From NCBI RefSeq assembly GCF_049510915.1, contig NZ_JBEKYN010000001.1: a stretch of 64,000 bases of DNA; one strand, written 5' to 3'. The stretch is from Methanoregula sp. (GTDB taxonomy: Archaea > Halobacteriota > Methanomicrobia > Methanomicrobiales > Methanospirillaceae). This document shows positions 6,707 to 63,518 of this stretch, piece by piece. The number at the start of each line of letters is the position of its first letter. The first letter of the stretch is position 1. Made by a program: the position numbers and the translations under genes. The notes below the pieces were generated by a model. It was not told the DNA's origin. It ran no database searches and was given only the letters and a program-made list of their open reading frames with translations.

Positions 6707-7590
6707 GGCTGCGCCTCCTCGGCGGCCAGTTTCTGCAGGTTCTCGGTCAGGTGCTGCCGGAGGGTTTCAAGCGATTTTGCGTCGATGCCCTTGAACCGCC
6801 CCTGTGGGGCGAGGTACTCTTCGAGCGGGATCGGTTTTCTCATCGCCGCTTTCGAGGGTGCGCTTATCGTCAGTTTCCCGTGCTCGCGCTCGTAGAGCAC
6901 CCACATGCCGGATTTGACCGCGAGTTTTCCCATCTCGATCGTCTTCTCGGTCGGGTACCGCCAGCCGGGCGGGCAGGGGGCGAGGATATGGATAAAGGTC
7001 GGTCCCCGGAACGTGAGCGCTTTTGCAACCTTCTTGAAAATATCCTGCGGGTACGCGCTGCACGCGGTCGCCATGTATTCGAGGTGGTGGGCGGCCGCGA
7101 TCGCGTCGATGTCTTTCTTCTCCACGGTCTTCCCGGTGGGGGTGGTCGTGGTCTTAGCGCCAAGGGGCGTCGCGCCCGAGCGCTGCATGCCGGTGTTCCC
7201 GTAGGCCTCGTTGTCGTAGCAGATATACAGGAAATCGGTGCCCCGTTCAAAGGCGCCCGACATCGACTGGATACCGATATCAAGCGTCCCGCCGTCCCCG
7301 GCGTAGACGATCACGTGGGTCTTTTTGCCCATGCCTAAAAACGCTTCGGTCATCCCCGATGCACACGCGGCAGCGGAGGCAAACGCGACATTGTAGACCG
7401 GCACGTTCACCGCGGTGTTGGGGTAGATTCCCTGGATGACGCTCGTACAGCACGCGGGCACGACAAGCACGGTATCATGCCCGGCAGCTTTCAGCACGTA
7501 GCGCAGCGTCAGGGACGAACTGCACCCGGCGCACGCGGACGTGCATTTTTTTATGTACTCTTCCTTTGGGATTTCAGCGATGATCACCAA
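6703..7590 (-). CDS. 2-oxoacid:ferredoxin oxidoreductase, beta (TPP-binding) subunit
   Basis: 295 aa with the thiamine-diphosphate motif YAGDGGTLDIGIQS...NEAYGNTG and N-terminal Cys ligands (CAGC ... CC). Confidence 0.92.
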   Translation of the reverse strand: MVIIAEIPKEEYIKKCTSACAGCSSSLTLRYVLKAAGHDTVLVVPACCTSVIQGIYPNTAVNVPVYNVAFASAAACASGMTEAFLGMGKKTHVIVYAGDGGTLDIGIQSMSGAFERGTDFLYICYDNEAYGNTGMQRSGATPLGAKTTTTPTGKTVEKKDIDAIAAAHHLEYMATACSAYPQDIFKKVAKALTFRGPTFIHILAPCPPGWRYPTEKTIEMGKLAVKSGMWVLYEREHGKLTISAPSKAAMRKPIPLEEYLAPQGRFKGIDAKSLETLRQHLTENLQKLAAEEAQP

Positions 7591-14739: not shown

Positions 14740-15021
14740 TTATTTCTTACCGGTCACCTTGATGACATGGTACCCGAACTGAGATTTTACCGGGCCGATG
14801 ACCGATCCCTGCTCTGCGGCAAACGCGGCCTGCTCGAACTCGGGGACCATCTGCCCTTTGCCGAACCAGCCGAGGTCTCCCCCGTTCTTTTTCGACGGGC
14901 AGGACGAGAAGCGCTTTGCAACTGCGGCAAAATCCTCGCCATCCTTGATTCGTTTCAGGATCCTGTTTGCATCCTCCTCTTTTGTCACGAGGATGTGGGA
15001 TGCGCGTATCTGTGTGGTCAT
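14740..15021 (-). CDS. Parvulin-type peptidyl-prolyl cis-trans isomerase
   Basis: 93 aa. ASHILV...GGDLGWFGKGQMVPEFE...GYHVIKV matches the parvulin/PinA rotamase domain. Confidence 0.9.
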   Translation of the reverse strand: MTTQIRASHILVTKEEDANRILKRIKDGEDFAAVAKRFSSCPSKKNGGDLGWFGKGQMVPEFEQAAFAAEQGSVIGPVKSQFGYHVIKVTGKK

Positions 15022-15659
15022 GTATAGTGATGGGGAGGTTTTGGGATAAAAGGGTTGAGAGATGGGTGTTGAAGTGGTGTTTCCAGCTGTTCCTTTAGGG
15101 CTGTCGCCTCCAGCAGGGGGACGGTTCCAAACTAAGAGAGCGTAGGTCCCGGGGGGATCGTTTCTCCGACGGAGGGCCGGAACATGGCGATCCCGTATGG
15201 CCGGTCTCCAGTGGAAGCGCTGTCCACGCCACTCAAAAAGTCTTATTTAATCGCGTTTTTTCCCGAAATTTCCCTTTTAATCAGGATTCAGACCTGCATA
15301 ATAGCGGGCTTCTGCGGGCAGGGTTTTTGGAGATGTCTACATGGTCATATGAGTGGGAGATCGGCCACCCGGAGGCCGCTATGAGCGTTTCTTAATTTTA
15401 CGTCGGAGAAATTGGTTTGAGGGGGGTGGGATCGACGGTGACTATTAGGCAGGAGACGCTCCTGGGGGCTGCCGCCCCCGCCGCGTGGGCGTCCCCCGGT
15501 TGCGATGATGCTGTATTACCTGTTCTCAGATATTCACCCCCGGCACCGGTAATACGGAGGCATCGCATACGCCCCCGCCCCCCTGTGGGGGCAGGGCTGG
15601 CGTAAGGGGGGTTGCATGATACCAAAAATCTTACAAGTACTGAATTACCCGGATCTTTT

Positions 15660-16300
15660 CCTGCACGAAATTTGTTTGGTCCCTGAAATTTTCCAGCATT
15701 CAGATCTCAAGGCCAAAATTTCCGGGCCGTTGCAACTTTCGCGCCGGATTTTTCCGGCCCGGGAAATTTCGCGGCCGGAAAAGTACCGGGTTTTCAAGTT
15801 CCACATTCCGACCCTTGCCGCAGGATTTACGGCGGAGATCTGTGACTGAGGTTCCGGCACGGTGCTTTTTTTAAAACTTTCGCGCCAACTTTTTTTGGCC
15901 CTGAGAATTTTCAATCCAATTTTTTTGGATTTTTCAACTTTCGACCGGAAAATTTTCCGGTTTTTGAAATTTCGAACCAAAAAATTTTGGCCGGAAAAAA
16001 TTTCGCGGCAAAAAAGCTCCGGCCGCCCGAACTTTCAAACCAAAATTTTTCCAGAAATAAAAATTTCGTGCCGTACGGACCGAGCGCGATCAGTGCGGAA
16101 AAATTTCGGGGCGAGTTATACTCACCGTCGGAGGCACCCTATTATAGTGGGGGTTTTACCCACTTTCGCGGCGATCCTCCGGAATTTTTTTCGCGCGAAA
16201 GTTTGTACGCTACATAATTTTGTGGCGTGAAAAGTCTCACGCAGGAAAAAAGTTCGGGCGCAACGCCGATTTTGGAGCAGTTCTTTTGAAAAGCCCATTA
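15660..16300. repeat. Degenerate array of about 30 A/T-tract plus CG-clamp units
   Basis: Units look like GAAATTTCGCGGCCGG, AACTTTCGCGCC, AAAATTTCCGGGCC and AAAAAATTTCGCGGC, with variable 12-25 nt spacing. Perfect palindromes are CCGGAAAATTTTCCGG (15945-15960) and TTTCGCGCGAAA (16189-16200). Every reading frame gives low-complexity K/R/F/I/S peptides. Confidence 0.8.
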
Positions 16301-16458
16301 TTATTCATCAAGAGTGGCCGGTCCAAGACTCTCATGCAGTTCCTGAGTCCCATTGTCAATGTTGGGTGAATTGAGCGCTATCTTCTCCACATCTTGCGAT
16401 AAGTGCCGCCGTCCCCGAAGGGACACCCCCGCAGCGGATCAGTGACCAAAAATGGTGC

Positions 16459-16508
16459 GAAAAACACTCCCTTGCCCCGCCGTGCCCCGGAGGGGCCCTG
16501 AGGCGGGG
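16459..16508 (-). terminator. Nested G+C-rich hairpin plus oligo-T, likely terminator of the upstream minus-strand gene
   Basis: CCCCGCC (16475-16481) pairs with GGCGGGG (16502-16508), enclosing GCCCC-GGA-GGGGC. On the minus strand the hairpin is followed by TGTTTTTCG and CATTTTTGG. A T7 run follows it on the plus strand too. Confidence 0.4.
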
Positions 16509-16558
16509 AGCTCTCGCTTTTTTTAATTGTTTCATTGGGATTCGGACGCCGGTCTAGT

Positions 16559-17971
16559 CTAAAACTCCCCGTCCTGCTCGAAGCTCCGCCCGTACCGTAT
16601 CGCGAGCTCCGCCTTGTAGAGTTCCCGGCCCAGGTATCCCGCATGGTCGAGGAGTGAGACATGCCCCCCATCAATGAGCGTATACAGTACGTCCTGCCAC
16701 CGGCTCCCCTTCATCGCCTTCCCATTGATCACCGCAACGATCTGGTCGCCTTCGATCCCGATCCGGAAGTTACCTTTCGGGTCGTAGGTGATCTCGTTCG
16801 GCATCCGCCCTGCCGGGATTACGGTCTTGTATTCAAGTGGCGGTTCGCGCCGGCGCCGTTTTTCCTTGAGCACCAGCAGGTCGACGCCGAGATCTTTGGG
16901 GTACGGCCGGTCCCGGGCAAGCACCATCATCTCGGTTGCCCGGCGCATCTCCCGGATCGAGCCCCGGGTCTTGTCCGAATGCTCGCTTGAGAAGATCACG
17001 GCCGCTCCCGTTTCCATTGCCATGCCGGCGAGCAGGGCATTTGTCCCGATCGAGTCCGCATCAAGAAGTTCGATCACGTTTCCCGCGCCAAAGAAAAGCG
17101 GGCAGCCGGAATCCTTGAACTGCCGAAGCGAGGTAACAAGCCCCGAGCCGACCGGTTGGAGGAGAGGGTCGGCAATGATGCAGGAGACACCGGCGCGCCG
17201 CGCCCGGGTAATATTTTTCGCGAGCGTGTTCCCGCCGGGCACCACGACCGCGGCCGCTCCCGCCCGGGCCACGTCCTTTCCTACAAGGGGAATATTTGTC
17301 TCCTGGAGCGAGAGCACGAGATCGGCACGAAAAAGCGCGGTCCGAATCAGGTCCGGGTCCTGCGTGTCCACGGAGAGCGGACCATTGATCTCCTCAAGTT
17401 CGGAGAACACCCGTTTCACGTCTGCCGGGGTCGCATCGAAGCCAAAGCCGAGATCGACGATATCGGCGCCGCAGGAAAAATACTGCTCCACACGATCTTG
17501 GATGATCTCCACGCGGTGGGCGTCCATGATCTCCGCGAGCACTTTTATCCGCGATGTTCCACCGATCTTTACGCCCCGGATCACAAACTCCGGTTCTGCA
17601 GTGATTTCCGCAGCCATGACGCGCTTTACCGCATCCTTTGCTTTTCCTGCGGCAAGGAAATCCTCCGCAGGAACCGTGCGCGAGAGCGGGACCTTTCCGA
17701 CAAGCGGGAGGATCCCTGCAAGATCCGCCGCGTGCCGTGGCCCCCGGTACACAGGTACCCCGGTCTCGCGCTCCACCTGCTCGAAAGAGACTGTGCACAT
17801 CCCCGATACCACAACCGCATCGTAAGCGCCCTTTGTAATCAGTTCACGGAGTGCATGGGGGGTAAGAAACGAGGCGATCTTTCCGGTCACCATCACGTCA
17901 GCGTTGAAACCGGCTGCTGCTTTTCTTACTATATCCACGGTTGCCGCACCGGTGGGGAGGAGGATACGCAT
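16559..17971 (-). CDS. Dihydropteroate-synthase-like (pterin-binding) protein, MJ0107 type
   Basis: The central pterin-binding domain reads GADIVDLGFGFDATP ... LSVDTQDP. The C-terminal DPKGNFRI...GYLGRELYKAELA resembles the DUF4346 tail of methanogen DHPS-like proteins. Start moved to ATG 17971 (MRILLPTG). Confidence 0.8.
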   Translation of the reverse strand: MRILLPTGAATVDIVRKAAAGFNADVMVTGKIASFLTPHALRELITKGAYDAVVVSGMCTVSFEQVERETGVPVYRGPRHAADLAGILPLVGKVPLSRTVPAEDFLAAGKAKDAVKRVMAAEITAEPEFVIRGVKIGGTSRIKVLAEIMDAHRVEIIQDRVEQYFSCGADIVDLGFGFDATPADVKRVFSELEEINGPLSVDTQDPDLIRTALFRADLVLSLQETNIPLVGKDVARAGAAAVVVPGGNTLAKNITRARRAGVSCIIADPLLQPVGSGLVTSLRQFKDSGCPLFFGAGNVIELLDADSIGTNALLAGMAMETGAAVIFSSEHSDKTRGSIREMRRATEMMVLARDRPYPKDLGVDLLVLKEKRRRREPPLEYKTVIPAGRMPNEITYDPKGNFRIGIEGDQIVAVINGKAMKGSRWQDVLYTLIDGGHVSLLDHAGYLGRELYKAELAIRYGRSFEQDGEF

Positions 17972-18012
17972 ACGTTTTCTTAATACCAGAGAGATAAAAA
18001 CACTATGATCAG

Positions 18013-18690
18013 ATGCTGACCTGCGATCTGCATGTGCATACAAATTTTTCGAAGGATGGCGAGAGCAGTGTCGAAGATATCCTCCGTCAGGCGGAGGCGG
18101 TCGGGCTTGACGTGATCGCCATCACCGACCACGACTGCGTCGATGGGGCAAAAAAAGCGCTCGCGTGCACCTGTTCCCTTCTTGTAATCCCCGGGATCGA
18201 GGTCTCGACCCTGCAGGGCCACCTGCTGGTGTTAGGTGTGACCGAGATTATTCCCGCGGGCCTTGACGTGCGCGAGACGGTCAGGATCGCCCGGCGCATG
18301 GGGGCGCTCGTCGTCCTCCCCCATCCGTACCATATGTGGCGGCACGGCGTCGCCCGGAGGATCCGGGCCGCCATGAAGATCGTCGACGCGGTCGAGGCCT
18401 TCAACAGCCGCTACATCGTCGGTTCGGCCAACCGCAAGGCAGGCAGGATCGCGTCACGGTTGAACAAGCCCTGTGTCGGCGGGAGTGACGCCCATAACGC
18501 ACGGTTCGTGGGCTTCGGGAGGACATATGTCGAGGCAAAACCGGATATGCAGGCCATCTTTGCGGCTATCCGGGCGGGGCGGGTTTCCTGCGGCGGGAGA
18601 AAAACGCCCCTGCGCACCTATACCCGCCAGTCGCTGAACAACACATGGAGAAGGATCAAACGTCTGACCCGGCGGTTCCGCGTCCGGTAA
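18013..18690 (+). CDS. PHP-domain metal-dependent phosphoesterase
   Basis: CDLHVHTNFSKDG ... VIAITDHD ... HPY ... GGSDAH are the PHP-family His/Asp motifs. Confidence 0.85.
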   Translation: MLTCDLHVHTNFSKDGESSVEDILRQAEAVGLDVIAITDHDCVDGAKKALACTCSLLVIPGIEVSTLQGHLLVLGVTEIIPAGLDVRETVRIARRMGALVVLPHPYHMWRHGVARRIRAAMKIVDAVEAFNSRYIVGSANRKAGRIASRLNKPCVGGSDAHNARFVGFGRTYVEAKPDMQAIFAAIRAGRVSCGGRKTPLRTYTRQSLNNTWRRIKRLTRRFRVR

Positions 18691-38375: not shown

Positions 38376-38591
38376 ATGGGACAGAAAATTGGAAAGGAAA
38401 AGATCCAGCGCGAAAAGGGATTCCTGTACTTCATTGGGAAGGACGGGTATGTCTGGGCAGCCCCGATGAAGCACAACAAGACCGGCAAGAAGAAGAAAGT
38501 CGGTACTGAAAAGATTGCCAAGGAAAAGGGCTACATGTATTACATTGGCAAAGACGGATTCGTCGCAAAAGCCAAGATGAAAAACGCATAA
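38376..38591 (+). CDS. Small basic protein made of two tandem 29-aa repeats
   Basis: The two repeats are KIGKEKIQREKGFLYFIGKDGYVWAAPMK and KVGTEKIAKEKGYMYYIGKDGFVAKAKMK, joined by a Lys-rich linker. A TATA-like TTTTATATTA is present about 55 nt upstream and GAGGTG 8 nt upstream of the ATG. Confidence 0.65.
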   Translation: MGQKIGKEKIQREKGFLYFIGKDGYVWAAPMKHNKTGKKKKVGTEKIAKEKGYMYYIGKDGFVAKAKMKNA

Positions 38592-38599
38592 ACCGAACA

Positions 38600-38668
38600 T
38601 CTTTTTATCATTGCAGTCGGATATGGTGCCGGGGCAATCCGGTACTGCCCGACTGCATATAATTTTTC
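38600..38668 (+). terminator. Oligo-T runs and a long hairpin downstream of the 71-aa gene
   Basis: A T5 run at 38602-38606 follows the stop. The stem TGCAGTCGG (38612-38620) pairs with CCGACTGCA (38649-38657), with an inner GTGCCGG/CCGGTAC pairing, followed by a second T5 at 38663-38667. Confidence 0.4.
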
Positions 38669-38968
38669 CCCTGACGGGATCGTTTCTCACAATATTTCTT
38701 ATTATGTGCATCTGTCAGGTATCATTGAATGGTAAATGTGAATCAGCAGATCTGATGCGGCATTATTGCGGATGAATAAGTGCAGACCGTTCTCGGCTAC
38801 CCTTCTGATTTCTTACCGGGGAGTTCCCTTGGTGCATAGTAATGTATGTGCAATGCATGTGCAATCTATTGTGAAACCTGATGTCTATATTTATACCCTA
38901 TTGTTTCCACTGGAAAATCAAAGAATTATGGTTTTTTTGGTTAAATACTGATAATCCACTGGATCTTT

Positions 38969-39151
38969 ATGGACAACCTGAAAGCAGAATACGAAAGGAA
39001 ATCAGATCGTATATACACGGATCACAACATCATAGTAACCGAGGAACCGATCAGCAAGATTAACTCTGAACGTCTCATGAACGGCATCTGTGGTCTCACC
39101 ATAGCGCTCATGATCCGGAACAGCCAGCCCTCCCGGCCCTGTTCATTGTAA
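38969..39151 (+). CDS. Hypothetical 60-aa protein
   Basis: ORF MDNLKAEYERKSDRIYTDHNIIVTEEPISK... lies downstream of a TATA-like ATATTTATAC (38887-38896). No family and no obvious RBS. Confidence 0.25.
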   Translation: MDNLKAEYERKSDRIYTDHNIIVTEEPISKINSERLMNGICGLTIALMIRNSQPSRPCSL

Positions 39152-46212: not shown

Positions 46213-47444
46213 TCGTTGAGGACACCCATTCCGATTAACCGCCAGCGTGCTCCCACCTGCCGGCTGATAGCGATCCGGGCTCCCTGCTCTGCGCAGACCG
46301 GACGCTTCAGCTGCACTTCGACTGCCTCTTTCTTTGTGCTTGTGACTACACCCACCGTGACCGCGGTACCGACGGAAAGCATGAGCGGTTCGTTGTATTT
46401 TAGGGGTTCAATGACAAGTTCGCTCGTTGCTCCCACGACCCGTTCCATCAGAGTGACCTGGCATTTGATCTTATCCCATACCGGGGGCAGTTTCCCGACA
46501 TGGCCGACGACCTGACCGGCCAGTGCATCGCTTTTGGTGAGCGCCGGGTCAAGTTTGGTCCCGACACCGAGAAGCCCCCCCGGTGTCGCTTCTTTTACAG
46601 TTTTTGTACCAGCGTTGATGGAGGTAACTTCTGTGATGATCGGGATCCACTTGATTCGGTTCTCGATCTGCGTCTGCCTGCCGGGCCGGATCTCAATAGC
46701 ATCGCCTTCGCGGAGGATGCCCCGGATAAGAGACCCTCCGACAACACCTCCTTTTACCTCCTTCCAGTTGCAGCCGGGTTTGTTAATGTCAAATGAGCGG
46801 GCAACAAGCATCACCGGCTCGGCTGAGGGGTCGCGGACCGGCTCGGGAATGGTCTGGTCCAATGCCTGCACCAGTGCTCCCATGTTGATACCTTTTTGGG
46901 CTGAGACCGGGATGATGGGGGCGCTCTCGGCAACGGTTCCTTTCACGAATGCCTTAATCTGCTGGTAATTATCGATCGCCTCTTTCTGGGAGACGACGTC
47001 AATCTTGTTCTGGACGATCACGATCTTTTTGATGCCGACAAGCCCCAATGCCATGAGGTGCTCTTTTGTCTGGGGCTGCGGGCATTTCTCCGTGGTGGAG
47101 ATGACCAGCATCGCCCCGTCCATCAGTGCCGAACCCGAAAGCATCGTCGCCATCAGGGTCTCGTGCCCGGGTGCATCCACAAAAGAGACGGACCGGAACG
47201 GAGTCCCGGTTCCGCCGCAGACCGGGCAGACCGGCTTTGTCGAGTATGCATCCGGGCCTTCGCAGTTCCCACACTTATAGAATGTTGCATCCGCGTAACC
47301 CAGCCGGATGGATATTCCCCGCCGCACCTCCTCACTATGCCGGTCCGTCCAGGTTCCGGTGAGCGCATTTACGAGCGTGGTTTTCCCGTGGTCCACATGG
47401 CCCACCACCCCGATATTTACACTGGGTATTGTCACATCATGCAA
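46209..47444 (-). CDS. eif2g: Translation initiation factor aIF2 gamma subunit
   Basis: G1 motif GHVDHGKTT, the zinc knuckle CGNCEG...CPVCGG, DAPGHE and NKID. The ORF-track start at 47444 is TTG, 10 nt after AAGGAGGT. Confidence 0.95.
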   Translation of the reverse strand: MHDVTIPSVNIGVVGHVDHGKTTLVNALTGTWTDRHSEEVRRGISIRLGYADATFYKCGNCEGPDAYSTKPVCPVCGGTGTPFRSVSFVDAPGHETLMATMLSGSALMDGAMLVISTTEKCPQPQTKEHLMALGLVGIKKIVIVQNKIDVVSQKEAIDNYQQIKAFVKGTVAESAPIIPVSAQKGINMGALVQALDQTIPEPVRDPSAEPVMLVARSFDINKPGCNWKEVKGGVVGGSLIRGILREGDAIEIRPGRQTQIENRIKWIPIITEVTSINAGTKTVKEATPGGLLGVGTKLDPALTKSDALAGQVVGHVGKLPPVWDKIKCQVTLMERVVGATSELVIEPLKYNEPLMLSVGTAVTVGVVTSTKKEAVEVQLKRPVCAEQGARIAISRQVGARWRLIGMGVLNE

Positions 47445-47481
47445 ATAAAATCGAACCTCCTTATCCTATTTCTAATAGGCA

Positions 47482-47508
47482 TACTTATACATAACCTGTA
47501 AAGGCTGG
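47482..47508. promoter_or_regulatory. Perfect 10-bp inverted repeat just upstream of the aIF2-gamma promoter
   Basis: AACCTGTAAA-ggctggt-TTTACAGGTT lies directly upstream (minus-strand sense) of TGTATAAGTATG and the AAGGAGGT RBS. Confidence 0.35.
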
Positions 47509-47599
47509 TTTTACAGGTTCGGGATGTTTTTTTACTGGCAACAAGTAATAAAAAAGGAAAAAAGCCGGTATCCCGGATACTGAAGTACCGTCGTGGGAA

Positions 47600-47911
47600 T
47601 TAGCCCCCGCCTTCACAGCTCTGGTCGATGTTTTTCAGGGCTTCCTGGAGTTCACTTCCTGCAGCAAATTCCCGCTCACGCCGGATCACTTCTTTCGCGT
47701 CCTCCTTAATGGCAGTGGTCGACTGCTTTGTGCGTTCTGCAGGGATCAACAGGTCAGTACGATAGAGAAGGTGCGTGCTGTCCAGCTCGGCAAACTGGTT
47801 TCCCGCCACCTGCTCAATCCGGACCACGGCACCGGTGGTCCCGGTGCGGGGATACCGCACCCGTATGCCAAGGGCGATCTCTTGAGCGAGCATACTAGAG
47901 AATGAGTTCAT
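47600..47911 (-). CDS. Conserved archaeal hypothetical protein (possibly DUF2098)
   Basis: 103-aa ORF followed by oligo-T runs. The family assignment is from memory only. Confidence 0.55.
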   Translation of the reverse strand: MNSFSSMLAQEIALGIRVRYPRTGTTGAVVRIEQVAGNQFAELDSTHLLYRTDLLIPAERTKQSTTAIKEDAKEVIRREREFAAGSELQEALKNIDQSCEGGG

Positions 47912-63210: not shown

Positions 63211-63518
63211 AAGATACTTTTTTCTTTGTACTCTTGGGGGCTGTCGCCCCCGCCGCACTGGCATACCCGTGTAGCGACGACTCGCGAGAAGAGAATACAG
63301 AAATTGGCAATTTGTACCAAAGCGATTCGTGTTGTTCGTTCGATTGCCCAAAAGAAACGGAAATAATCCCGTTTCTCTCGGGATTTACGAAAAAATTAGG
63401 CGTATTGAGAATCCTTGCAGCAAGTGGTTATGAGAAAAGTGCGCCAATTTTTCACTATAATTTTTACACATTCTGTCTAAACTTATCCACCCATCGTTGT
63501 GCAGCTAATGCGATATAA
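63207..63518 (+). CDS. Hypothetical small secreted Cys-containing protein
   Basis: ATGA overlap with the preceding stop. Signal-peptide-like MKDTFFFVLLGAVAPAALAYPC. The 3' end overlaps the convergent repeat-protein gene by 55 nt, which lowers confidence. Confidence 0.3.
   Translation: MKDTFFFVLLGAVAPAALAYPCSDDSREENTEIGNLYQSDSCCSFDCPKETEIIPFLSGFTKKLGVLRILAASGYEKSAPIFHYNFYTFCLNLSTHRCAANAI

What the first reader, a model, noticed from the sequence alone, without database searches (positions are those of the whole stretch)
15660..16300. About 30 degenerate A/T-tract plus CG-clamp units with embedded perfect palindromes
Nearly the whole interval parses into units of an A/T run ending in TTTC followed by a CG-rich clamp. 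Examples are GAAATTTCGCGGCCGG, AACTTTCGCGCCGG, ATTTTTCCGGCCCGG, AAAATTTCCGGGCC, AAAAAATTTCGCGGC, AACTTTCAAACC and AATTTTTTTCGCGCG. Spacing is irregular (12-25 nt), so this is neither a CRISPR array nor a clean tandem repeat. Two half-site types recur, TTTCCGG/CCGGAAA and TTTCGCG/CGCGAAA. They form perfect palindromes CCGGAAAATTTTCCGG (15945-15960) and TTTCGCGCGAAA (16189-16200). Such a dense array of dyad half-sites separated by bendable A-tracts could be a multi-site protein-binding platform (partition/centromere-like, nucleoid-associated or regulatory). It could also be an unwinding element or a decayed minisatellite.
Basis: seen in the sequence. Interest (0 to 1): 0.7.

Follow-up and report, generated by a model that had tools for sequence, protein, structure and literature searches.

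The report
Phased 31-bp repeat array, Methanoregula
A non-coding stretch in an uncultured peat methanogen (Methanoregula) is a strictly 31-base-periodic array of about a dozen directional repeat units, kept in related genomes in different gene neighbourhoods; it most likely serves as a landing platform for a DNA-binding protein that is still unknown.

Summary
The motifs and both palindromes are real, at the stated coordinates, and far above dinucleotide-shuffle expectation. Spacing is not irregular: the region is a strict 31-nt directional tandem repeat (consensus AAcTTTCGanCCrAAAwTTTTTgGgtttttc, two ~15.5-nt half-units). It forms two blocks (15686-15790 and 15875-16100), followed by a tail with one inverted unit (16173-16203).

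The array lies in a 1.5-kb gene-free spacer of a Methanoregula genome. I found it, unit by unit, in 12 other Methanoregulaceae loci, at least three in unrelated gene contexts. Four close relatives lack the whole spacer at this locus. Period, block layout and a half-unit offset between blocks are conserved; individual units show positional orthology.

The palindromes show no covariation, both strands carry many oligo-T runs, and 31 is not a multiple of 3. Hairpin, long-RNA and coding readings are therefore disfavoured. There is no Rfam, plasmid or phage match, and no Orc1, Rep, ParA or Lrp gene nearby.

Best reading (about 0.4): a helically phased platform for a cooperatively binding protein, similar in grammar to Lrp/FFRP operators or plasmid centromeres. 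It passes no family's membership test. Function is unproven.

The parts
15136..15413 (.). Conserved ~275-nt companion element upstream of the array. It is bounded by the 11-nt inverted repeat TTTCTCCGACG / CGTCGGAGAAA. It holds a mini-ORB-like palindrome (CTCCAGTGGAAG at 15206; TTTCCAGTGGAAAC or TTTCCACAGGAAA in other copies; ORB = origin recognition box) and an AT-rich, predicted-curved centre.
   Evidence: Alignments. Two copies in L121. Weak covariation only. Curvature minimum at 15161-15340. It accompanies the array in the window, L001, L081, L082, L121, L158 and L196. It is not detected near the array in L004, L053, L002, L111, L139 or L147.
15466..15617 (.). GC-rich ~150-nt multi-copy element predicted to fold into three hairpins, immediately upstream of block A.
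   Evidence: Extra copies in L001 (4325-4477, 512-651), L053 (4325-4488, 492-624), L005, L006, L008 and L057, plus a partial copy at window 63231-63280. Fold.
15686..15790 (+). Array block A, partly eroded in this genome. Units or half-units start at 15687, 15716, 15734 and 15764. Relatives carry 4-5 clean 31-nt units here.
   Evidence: L082, L053 and L081 show the intact version.
15791..15874 (+). Spacer between the blocks, with a conserved GATTTACGrCGG box and a terminal T-run. From the start of the last block A unit to the start of the first block B unit is 141 nt (109 nt in three loci). That equals a whole number of units plus about half a unit.
15875..16100 (+). Array block B: seven head-to-tail units starting at 15875, 15906, 15936, 15967, 15998, 16030 and 16061. 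GC is 41%.
   Evidence: PWM scores of 30-40 bits. Lag-31 autocorrelation. Positional orthology with other arrays. Predicted curvature in the lowest 0.3-0.8% of the window.
16101..16172 (+). Tail core conserved across lineages: an AAATTTC start, a CGTCG box, GGTTTTTaCC and TTTCGCGGCGATC. Just upstream in the last block B unit (16061-16100) sits a short hairpin whose stem varies between loci around a conserved GCGATC loop.
   Evidence: Alignment. Weak consensus pairing of the two GATC boxes.
16173..16203 (-). One repeat unit in inverted orientation (AACTTTCGCGCGAAAAAAATTCCGGAGGATC on the - strand).
   Evidence: PWM score of 30.5 bits on the - strand. The same inverted unit is present in L082, L083, L121, L196 and L004.
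16204..16270 (+). Degenerate extension with unit-like remnants (AATTTTGTGGCGTGAAAAGT, GGAAAAAAGTTCGGGCGC).
   Evidence: families D3, D7.
16397..16515 (.). Second GC-rich multi-copy hairpin element ending in a T-run, between the array and the stop codon of the 494-aa gene. It is probably not part of the array module.
   Evidence: Copies in L004 (3057-3143), L036, L042 and L070.

Best explanation
The interval is the core of a lineage-specific, non-coding cis-element of Methanoregulaceae. It consists of two blocks of four to seven head-to-tail 31-bp units, so each unit spans three turns of the DNA helix.

My preferred mechanism is that each unit is a directional binding site for a sequence-specific DNA-binding protein encoded elsewhere in the genome. 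The conserved contacts would be AAMTTTC at unit positions 1-7, CC at 11-12, and an A-run/T-run junction at 14-21. Because the sites repeat every three helical turns, the bound proteins sit on one face of the helix and can contact each other. Each ~125-220-bp block would then become a cooperative, probably bent or wrapped, nucleoprotein complex. The two blocks are offset by half a unit, so they would face opposite sides.

What such a complex would do is not shown. It could organise the chromosome, act as a centromere-like handle, or control neighbouring promoters.

Shown here: the repeat anatomy, its statistical reality, its conservation and positional orthology, the absence of hairpin covariation, and the lack of coding or long-RNA potential. 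Inferred: protein binding, cooperativity and wrapping.
For: (1) Strict period. Unit starts are 30-32 nt apart within blocks, or 62-63 nt where a weak unit was skipped, in 13 arrays that differ by about 30% in sequence. Lag-31 autocorrelation is 6 sd above shuffles.

(2) Conservation is position-specific. Positions 1-7, 11, 14-15 and 19-21 carry 1.5-2 bits each. Positions 9-10 and 23-31 carry less than 0.9. This is the pattern expected of contact positions.

(3) Units are polar. In the window, 8 AA[ACT]TTTCG sites lie on the + strand and 2 on the - strand.

(4) Positional orthology. Unit B1 is 0.80 identical and B2 0.74 identical across arrays, against 0.48-0.65 between non-corresponding units. 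The array is therefore old and is not kept uniform by concerted evolution, so its indel-free spacing needs an explanation such as selection.

(5) The offset between blocks is 141 or 109 nt in all lineages, always a whole number of units plus about half a unit.

(6) The array, not its flanks, is the shared core across different gene contexts (L121, L196, L147, L111/L139).

(7) RNA and hairpin readings are disfavoured. There is no RR/YY covariation, T5+ runs reach about 20 per kb on both strands, and Rfam gives no match.

(8) Known systems have the same grammar. Archaeal Lrp-type regulators bind clusters of imperfect sites spaced two or three helical turns apart and wrap DNA (PMC2995911). The optimal FL11 site CCGAAA[AAT/ATT]TTTCGG shares the W-rich centre plus TTTCG half-site (PMC2715240).

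(9) A wedge model predicts that block B is among the most curved 1% of the window.
Against: No candidate binding protein is linked to the array. No Lrp, Orc1/Cdc6, Rep, ParA/ParB or other DNA-binding gene sits next to it in any context.

The element is dispensable at this locus in four close relatives.

Whole blocks are deleted in L081 and L002, and block A is eroded in the window itself, so any constraint is not absolute.

Nucleotide identity of the array between genomes (0.64-0.80) is not much above identity at 4-fold degenerate sites of the flanking gene (0.64-0.67).

The A/T pattern is dominated by a 15.5-bp harmonic, not a 10.3-bp one.

There are no binding, expression or copy-number-per-genome data.
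Confidence: 0.4

Rival explanations
1. It is a selfish or neutral minisatellite. The array would be an old tandem duplication carried in a patchwork of non-coding repeat elements in a recombination-prone spacer, with no function of its own. Its period would persist only because gains and losses happen in whole units.
For: The spacer is a mosaic of multi-copy elements. The whole 1.5 kb is missing in four close relatives. Whole-unit and whole-block gains and losses occur, and the window's block A is eroded. Array identity is close to neutral-site identity. Alleles look exchanged: the gene flanking L081 is 93% identical at 4-fold degenerate sites, yet its array differs.
Against: Positional orthology means the units have diverged in place without homogenisation. 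Even so, spacings within blocks stay within 30-32 nt in 13 arrays at about 30% divergence. Information is concentrated at fixed positions. The half-unit offset between blocks is conserved. The array is retained in at least four different gene contexts.
Confidence: 0.22
2. It is a plasmid- or virus-derived maintenance site, either a relic or still active. Under this reading it would be a centromere-like partition site of the F sopC or R1 parC type (my own knowledge of those systems), or an iteron-type replication origin of an integrated element.
For: It has two blocks of direct repeats, and about half of the units contain a CC..GG dyad. The region shows presence/absence variation at this locus. 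In L147 the array begins about 130 nt downstream of a tRNA-Gln gene, a classic integration site. L001 and L053 carry extra inserted genes beside it.
Against: No par, rep or integrase gene lies beside any of the arrays examined. There is no match in 72,556 plasmid or 50,697 phage records. The only IMG/VR pattern hit is an unrelated 33% GC repeat. No terminal inverted repeats or target duplications were seen at module borders.
Confidence: 0.13
3. It acts through intrinsic DNA structure, without a dedicated binding protein. Phased A-run/T-run junctions would give a curved or rigid segment. On my own knowledge that archaeal RNA polymerase terminates at oligo-T, the segment could act as a bidirectional terminator or insulator, or as a barrier or positioning element for archaeal histones.
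For: AnTn runs are enriched (24 against 4.7) but TnAn runs are not (5 against 2.7). Predicted curvature of block B is in the lowest 1% of the window. T5+ runs are about ten times the window density on both strands. The array sits between two genes.
Against: Structure alone does not explain the near-invariant C7 and C11, or the directional AAMTTTC core. The dominant A/T period is 15.5 bp rather than the ~10.3 bp expected for histone wrapping or strong planar curvature. Predicted curvature is moderate: an end-to-end ratio of 0.81, against 0.43-0.59 for ideal curved controls.
Confidence: 0.12
4. It is an RNA element: a transcript carrying about a dozen repeated short motifs or hairpins, either a protein sponge or a precursor of small RNAs.
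For: Units are directional with an 8-nt conserved box. Neighbouring conserved elements fold somewhat better than shuffles (z = -2.6 and -2.1). A few stems in the tail vary in a compensatory way.
Against: There is no covariation in the unit dyads. Neither strand gives consistent G-U rescue when the mixed units are inspected. Block B has 4-5 oligo-T runs on each strand. Rfam gives no hit even at E = 5. No conserved promoter-like box was seen at either array border in the sequences and alignments.
Confidence: 0.07
5. It is a chromosomal replication origin, or another Orc1/Cdc6-bound site.
For: The companion element carries a mini-ORB-like palindrome next to an AT-rich curved segment. The palindrome reads TTTCCAGTGGAAAC or TTTCCACAGGAAA, which keeps the TTCC...GAA core motifs of the Pyrococcus mini-ORB (PMC1904270). 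The array is AT-enriched, repeat-rich and has one inverted terminal unit.
Against: No orc1/cdc6 was found among the 30 large window ORFs scanned, including every gene from 11.5 to 22.3 kb. Only one ORB-like dyad is present, and single mini-ORBs elsewhere in Pyrococcus are not bound by Cdc6. The array units themselves lack the TTCC-N4-GAA core. The companion element is missing from several array loci. The module is absent at this locus in close relatives.
Confidence: 0.05

Closest known systems
Lrp/AsnC (feast/famine regulatory protein, FFRP) multi-site operators of archaea, e.g. FL11 and Ss-LrpB
   Same: They are clusters of imperfect sites on one helical face, with centre-to-centre spacing of two or three turns, cooperative binding and DNA wrapping (PMC2995911). 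Sites have a W-rich centre flanked by TTTCG-type arms; the FL11 optimum is CCGAAA[AAT/ATT]TTTCGG (PMC2715240).
   Different: The defining 13-bp form abcdeWWWedcba is not enriched here: 2 observed against 4.8 expected, and only even-centred dyads are enriched. The units are directional rather than palindromic. There are 10-12 sites, more than the few sites per target described in the works cited.
Plasmid centromeres built from tandem direct repeats (F sopC, 12 x 43 bp each with a dyad; R1 parC, two blocks of five 11-bp repeats). This description rests on my own knowledge.
   Same: The array has head-to-tail repeats, about half of them with an internal dyad, arranged in two blocks around a unique core. 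It is non-coding.
   Different: The unit length and sequence differ. The array is in archaeal chromosomal contigs. No partition genes lie beside it. There is no plasmid match.
[quoted passage not shown]
   Same: It is a repeat-rich, AT-enriched intergenic region. A single mini-ORB-like palindrome sits in the companion element.
   Different: The array units are not ORB-like. There is no adjacent orc1/cdc6, no inverted pair of ORBs, and the module is absent at this locus in relatives.
Iteron arrays of plasmid replication origins (own knowledge)
   Same: Directional direct repeats in helical phase.
   Different: No rep gene is adjacent. The 31-bp unit is longer than the roughly 20-bp iterons I know of. 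There is no plasmid homology.
Tandem repeats of Borg elements and ordinary prokaryotic minisatellites
   Same: Intergenic tandem repeats in a methane-cycling archaeon.
   Different: Borg repeats are described as recently formed and rapidly evolving (abstract of bioRxiv 10.1101/2022.05.18.492195). Here the units are old, diverged and positionally orthologous, with a fixed period.

Membership tests
Lrp/FFRP operator array | Sites of the palindromic form abcdeWWWedcba (13 bp with a 3-bp W centre) | tested here: not met
   Across the 13 arrays, perfect 5-nt arms around a 3-nt W centre occur 2 times against 4.8 +/- 2.2 in shuffles. Even-length centres are enriched instead: c = 4 gives 19 against 3.8, c = 2 gives 15 against 6.4.
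Lrp/FFRP operator array | Several imperfect sites spaced two or three helical turns apart on one face | tested here: met
   The 31-bp spacing holds throughout. The criterion is taken from PMC2995911.
Lrp/FFRP operator array | Linked lrp-family gene or a regulated promoter | tested here: inconclusive
Pfam scans of neighbouring genes found no HTH_AsnC domain. The regulator could be encoded elsewhere.
Archaeal oriC (ORB cluster) | Adjacent orc1/cdc6 initiator gene | tested here: not met
   Pfam scans of every gene from 11.5 to 22.3 kb, plus ten other 350-420-aa ORFs of the window, returned only metabolic and housekeeping families.
Archaeal oriC (ORB cluster) | Two or more ORB or mini-ORB repeats (TTCC...GAA core), typically inverted around an AT-rich unwinding element | tested here: not met
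   There is one ORB-like dyad in the spacer, at 15206. CTCCAGTGGAAR with up to 2 mismatches gives 9 hits in the window against 8.2 expected. The array unit consensus lacks the core.
Partition centromere (sopC/parC type) | Array of direct repeats that are bound by a centromere-binding protein | not testable with these tools
   The repeat architecture is compatible. Binding cannot be tested here.
Partition centromere (sopC/parC type) | Adjacent parA/parB-type (or segAB) operon | tested here: not met
   None was found beside the array in the window, L121, L196 or L147.
Iteron replication origin | Adjacent rep gene, with homology to a plasmid or virus | tested here: not met
   No rep gene. No plasmid or phage match. 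The one IMG/VR pattern hit is unrelated.
CRISPR array | Near-identical repeats separated by unique spacers of similar length | tested here: not met
   Units abut one another with no spacers and are only about 50-56% identical to each other. The only CRISPR-DR Rfam hit is at E = 1.7, below threshold.
Structured RNA family (Rfam) | Covariance-model match or covarying helices | tested here: not met
   No match at gathering threshold, and none better than E = 0.23. The unit dyads do not covary.
Transposon-like mobile element (MITE) | Terminal inverted repeats and a target-site duplication at the borders against an empty site | tested here: not met
   Comparison of the filled site with the empty sites (L003, L005, L073, L008) shows no duplication. 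No terminal inverted repeat is present at the L111/L139 module borders.

The most novel reading that the evidence does not exclude
The array is a previously undescribed type of archaeal chromosomal cis-element. Under this reading, a dedicated host protein polymerises head-to-tail on 31-bp directional units into two oppositely facing nucleoprotein blocks. These would serve as a chromosome-organising or segregation handle (a methanogen 'centromere'), or as an initiator-independent replication or topology site. The module would be able to relocate between genomic contexts by recombination.
Probability: 0.12. Interest if true: 0.8.

Novelty: new variant of a known kind. Interest (0 to 1): 0.5.

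Why it matters
Cis-acting DNA elements that organise, segregate or regulate archaeal chromosomes are, to my knowledge, poorly known outside a few model species, and none has been described for Methanoregulaceae, which are major methane producers in peatlands.

This array gives a sharply defined probe: a 31-bp consensus, two blocks, and natural deletion variants. A probe like this could pull out its binding protein directly. If a specific binder exists, it would define a new protein-DNA system in methanogens.

If no binder exists, the array is still a clean natural case of a tandem repeat whose period and phase are preserved while its sequence drifts. That would be useful for studying how repeat spacing is maintained.

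Tried and rejected
Rfam at gathering threshold and at E <= 5 gave nothing relevant.

Tandem Repeats Finder sees only fragments with period 15/16 because the units are too diverged. A hand-built PWM was needed instead.

The hairpin or palindrome reading was rejected by the RR/YY contingency table.

The coding reading was rejected. A 31-nt unit shifts the reading frame at every unit, and ORFs across the array are not conserved: L147 has none of 90 aa or more.

A histone-positioning reading was weakened. The 15.5-bp harmonic (0.31) exceeds the 10.33-bp harmonic (0.16).

A GATC cluster like that of a Dam-regulated origin was rejected. GATC occurs at 9.7 per kb across the whole window, and the module falls at the 21st percentile.

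FFRP site geometry was rejected.

The origin reading was weakened.

Plasmid and phage homology searches found nothing.

The one metagenome-wide pattern scan was largely wasted. Only 6 true arrays were recovered, so copy number per genome is unknown.

Terminal inverted repeats and target-site duplications were not found.

Literature searches for Methanoregula origins, Methanoregula repeats or 31-bp repeats found nothing relevant. Capaldi & Berger 2004 is not held in the library.
Full report
SETTING. The window comes from an uncultured Methanoregula. Its 494-aa PterinBD-DUF4346 protein is 63-86% identical to homologues in 80 Methanoregulaceae and other Methanomicrobiales genome loci. One JGI metagenome contig is identical over the region (L083).

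The finding lies in a 1537-nt gene-free spacer (15022-16558). On one side is a parvulin-type PPIase gene (14740-15021, - strand). On the other is the 3' end of the 494-aa gene (16559-18043, - strand). All neighbouring genes are housekeeping genes. No orc1/cdc6, rep, par, integrase or lrp gene was found.

OBSERVATION. Against 1000 dinucleotide-preserving shuffles of 15660-16300, the counts are as follows.
- TTTCCGG: 6 observed against 0.71 expected.
- TTTCGCG: 7 against 0.76.
- TTTC[CG][CG]G: 15 against 2.9; no shuffle reaches it.
- AA[ACT]TTTC[GA] on the + strand: 10 against 0.71.

Eight of the 11 + strand AA[ACT]TTTCG sites in the 64 kb lie in this stretch, against two on the - strand of the same stretch. 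The motif is therefore both clustered and polar.

Autocorrelation peaks at lag 31 (0.404 against 0.249 +/- 0.025 in shuffles), at lags 62/63, and more weakly at 15/16. Parsing the sequence gives head-to-tail 31-nt units.

ANATOMY. From 77 units in 13 arrays, the consensus is AAcTTTCGanCCrAAAwTTTTTgGgtttttc. Positions 1-2 (AA), 4-7 (TTTC), 11 (C), 14-15 (AA) and 19-21 (TTT) carry about 1.4-2 bits each. Positions 9-10 and 23-31 are loose.

Each unit is two half-units of about 15.5 nt.

The window array has the following parts.
- Block A (15686-15790), partly eroded.
- An ~85-nt spacer.
- Block B (15875-16100), with seven units.
- A conserved tail.
- One unit in inverted orientation (16173-16203, 30.5 bits on the - strand), which produces TTTCGCGCGAAA.

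In the whole window the unit PWM reaches 12 bits only between 15643 and 16203.

COMPARATIVE EVIDENCE. The array is present, unit by unit, at the same locus in L001, L002, L004, L053, L081, L082 and L158.

A pattern scan of metagenomes recovered the array in other gene contexts.
- L121: beside a 626-aa surface protein, with Yip1, methyltransferase and FtsX genes.
- L196: beside KaiC-like genes and a FlaI-type ATPase.
- L147: downstream of tRNA-Gln and a ThyA-like gene, near an S-layer-like protein.
- L111 and L139: two further, different sets of flanks.

Across these contexts the shared core is the array itself.

Companion elements vary.
- A 275-nt conserved element (15136-15413) with 11-nt terminal inverted repeats and a mini-ORB-like palindrome (ORB = origin recognition box) travels with the array in some loci. 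It occurs twice in L121.
- A GC-rich, three-hairpin, multi-copy element (15466-15617) precedes block A in the window, L001, L004, L053, L081 and L082 and is scattered elsewhere in relatives.

Four close relatives (L003, L005, L073, L008) have only about 80 nt between the PPIase start codon and the stop codon of the 494-aa gene, so the whole 1.5 kb is missing there. Because the array occurs in other contexts in other genomes, absence at this locus does not prove absence from those genomes.

EVOLUTIONARY BEHAVIOUR. Spacings within blocks are 30-32 nt (62-63 where a weak unit is skipped) in all 13 arrays, although the arrays differ by about 30%.

The distance from the last block A unit to the first block B unit is 141 nt in seven arrays, 140 and 144 nt in two others, and 108-109 nt in three. 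Every value is a whole number of units plus about half a unit. A half-unit offset between the blocks is therefore conserved.

Units show positional orthology. Identity across arrays is 0.80 for unit B1 and 0.74 for B2, against 0.48-0.65 for non-corresponding units and 0.50-0.56 between units of the same array. The array is thus old and is not being homogenised, which makes its indel-free period hard to explain without constraint.

The constraint is not absolute, however.
- Block B is missing in L081 and L002.
- The window has an extra unit relative to L082, and an eroded block A.
- Overall array identity (0.64-0.80) barely exceeds identity at 4-fold degenerate sites of the flanking gene (0.64-0.67).
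- L081's flanking gene is 93% identical at 4-fold sites, yet its array is a different allele, which suggests recombinational exchange.

WHAT IT IS NOT.
- Not a hairpin array. Among 44 units with a CC-RR...YY-GG dyad, RR and YY combine independently (AA/TT 9, AA/CC 7, GG/TT 9, GG/CC 7). The two perfect palindromes are chance combinations.
- Not coding. A 31-nt period shifts the reading frame at each unit, and ORFs across the array are not conserved.
- Probably not a long RNA. Block B has 5 (+ strand) and 4 (- strand) runs of T5 or longer in 226 nt, about ten times the window density. From my own knowledge, oligo-T tracts are archaeal termination signals. Rfam gives nothing.
- Not a CRISPR array, because there are no spacers.
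- Not a known plasmid or phage sequence.
- Not an ORB cluster. The spacer holds one mini-ORB-like dyad, and in Pyrococcus an isolated mini-ORB outside oriC showed no preferential Cdc6 binding (PMC1904270). The units lack the TTCC...GAA core, and no orc1/cdc6 gene is nearby.
- Not a GATC cluster. GATC is common throughout the window.
- Not histone-type 10-bp phasing. The 15.5-bp harmonic of A/T content (0.31) is twice the 10.33-bp harmonic (0.16).

BEST EXPLANATION. A period of 31 bp is three helical turns. [quoted passage not shown] This is the grammar of cooperative multi-site protein binding.

Archaeal Lrp/FFRP regulators bind clusters of imperfect sites two or three turns apart and wrap DNA (PMC2995911). 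The FL11 optimum CCGAAA[AAT/ATT]TTTCGG resembles the W-rich centre plus TTTCG core found here (PMC2715240). Tandem-repeat plasmid centromeres and iteron arrays have a similar layout (own knowledge).

A wedge model that reproduces the classic A5N5, A4T4 and T4A4 controls puts block B in the most curved 0.3-0.8% of the window. This is compatible with a pre-bent platform.

I therefore favour a phased binding platform for an oligomerising protein encoded elsewhere, at about 0.4. The protein's identity and the biological role are unknown.

Membership of each known family fails on at least one tested feature.
- The FFRP 13-bp palindrome form is not enriched: 2 observed against 4.8 expected.
- No par, rep or orc gene is linked.

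RIVALS.
- Neutral minisatellite inside a junkyard spacer: 0.22.
- Relic or active plasmid/virus maintenance site: 0.13.
- Protein-independent structural element (curvature, bidirectional terminator or histone barrier): 0.12.
- RNA: 0.07.
- Replication origin: 0.05.

VERDICT. No description of it turned up in Rfam, in the plasmid and phage collections, or in the literature I could search. Its function is not established. Interest is moderate. It would rise sharply if a specific binder, or a single conserved chromosomal position, were shown.

Noticed in passing
window 15466-15617 (partial copy at 63231-63280); L001 4325-4477 and 512-651; L053 4325-4488 and 492-624; also L005, L006, L008, L057: A GC-rich ~150-nt multi-copy element predicted to fold into three hairpins. 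The central hairpin is GCGATGATGCTGTATTACCTGT...ACAGGTAATAC..GGCATCGC with a variable loop. The 3' end CGCCCCCGCCCCC..GGGGGCAGGGCTGGCGTAAGGGGGG is conserved. It is scattered in intergenic regions of Methanoregula genomes and has no Rfam match.
   Followed up: partly
window 15136-15413; L121 840-1140 and 3280-3565; L196 1300-1605: A ~275-nt conserved non-coding element bounded by the 11-nt inverted repeat TTTCTCCGACG / CGTCGGAGAAA. It contains a mini-ORB-like palindrome (TTTCCAGTGGAAAC or TTTCCACAGGAAA) and a predicted-curved AT-rich centre. In L121 two copies flank a 626-aa surface-protein gene. Evidence for RNA covariation is weak.
   Followed up: partly
window 16397-16515; L004 3057-3143; L036 26-136; L042 3148-3250; L070 7848-7949: A second GC-rich hairpin element ending in a T-run, present in several copies in related genomes. 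It may be a terminator-like repeat.
   Followed up: no
window 38600-38970: An AT-rich intergenic region (about 43% GC) near the tRNA-Val and tRNA-Gly genes. It contains two mini-ORB-like TCCACTGGA motifs 50 nt apart (TTTCCACTGGAAAA at 38904 and AATCCACTGGATC at ~38955). No orc1/cdc6 gene was seen next to it.
   Followed up: no
window 38377-38592: A small ORF of 71 aa with an internal duplication: KEKGFLYFIGKDGYVWAAPMK and KEKGYMYYIGKDGFVAKAKMK. Function unknown.
   Followed up: no
window ~15059-16558 compared with L003, L005, L073 and L008 at about 7480-7565: The whole 1.5-kb spacer is a presence/absence polymorphism among genomes whose flanking protein is ~80-86% identical to the window's. 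L001 and L053 carry extra genes in the same gap: a low-GC ORF in L001 and a secreted ~330-aa protein in L053. This intergenic site is therefore a hotspot for insertion or replacement.
   Followed up: partly
L147 4447-4520: A tRNA-Gln(CTG) gene ends about 130 nt upstream of the first clear repeat unit in this locus. It is the only array found next to a tRNA.
   Followed up: partly
L084 (contig end corresponds to window 15635); L085, L086: Several metagenome contigs carrying the identical PPIase gene break off inside the spacer, one of them exactly where the array begins. The repeats probably fragment short-read assemblies, so the array may be under-represented in metagenome-assembled genomes.
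   Followed up: no
L089-L208 (most loci): The array pattern also matches an abundant, unrelated 17-nt satellite (GGAACTTTCGTTCCCTG) in ~40-48% GC metagenome contigs that I take to be eukaryotic.
   Followed up: no
window 63281-63480 and 47441-47640: These are the strongest predicted intrinsic curvature minima of the window in the wedge model (end-to-end ratios 0.74-0.80). Both are stronger than the array's.
   Followed up: no
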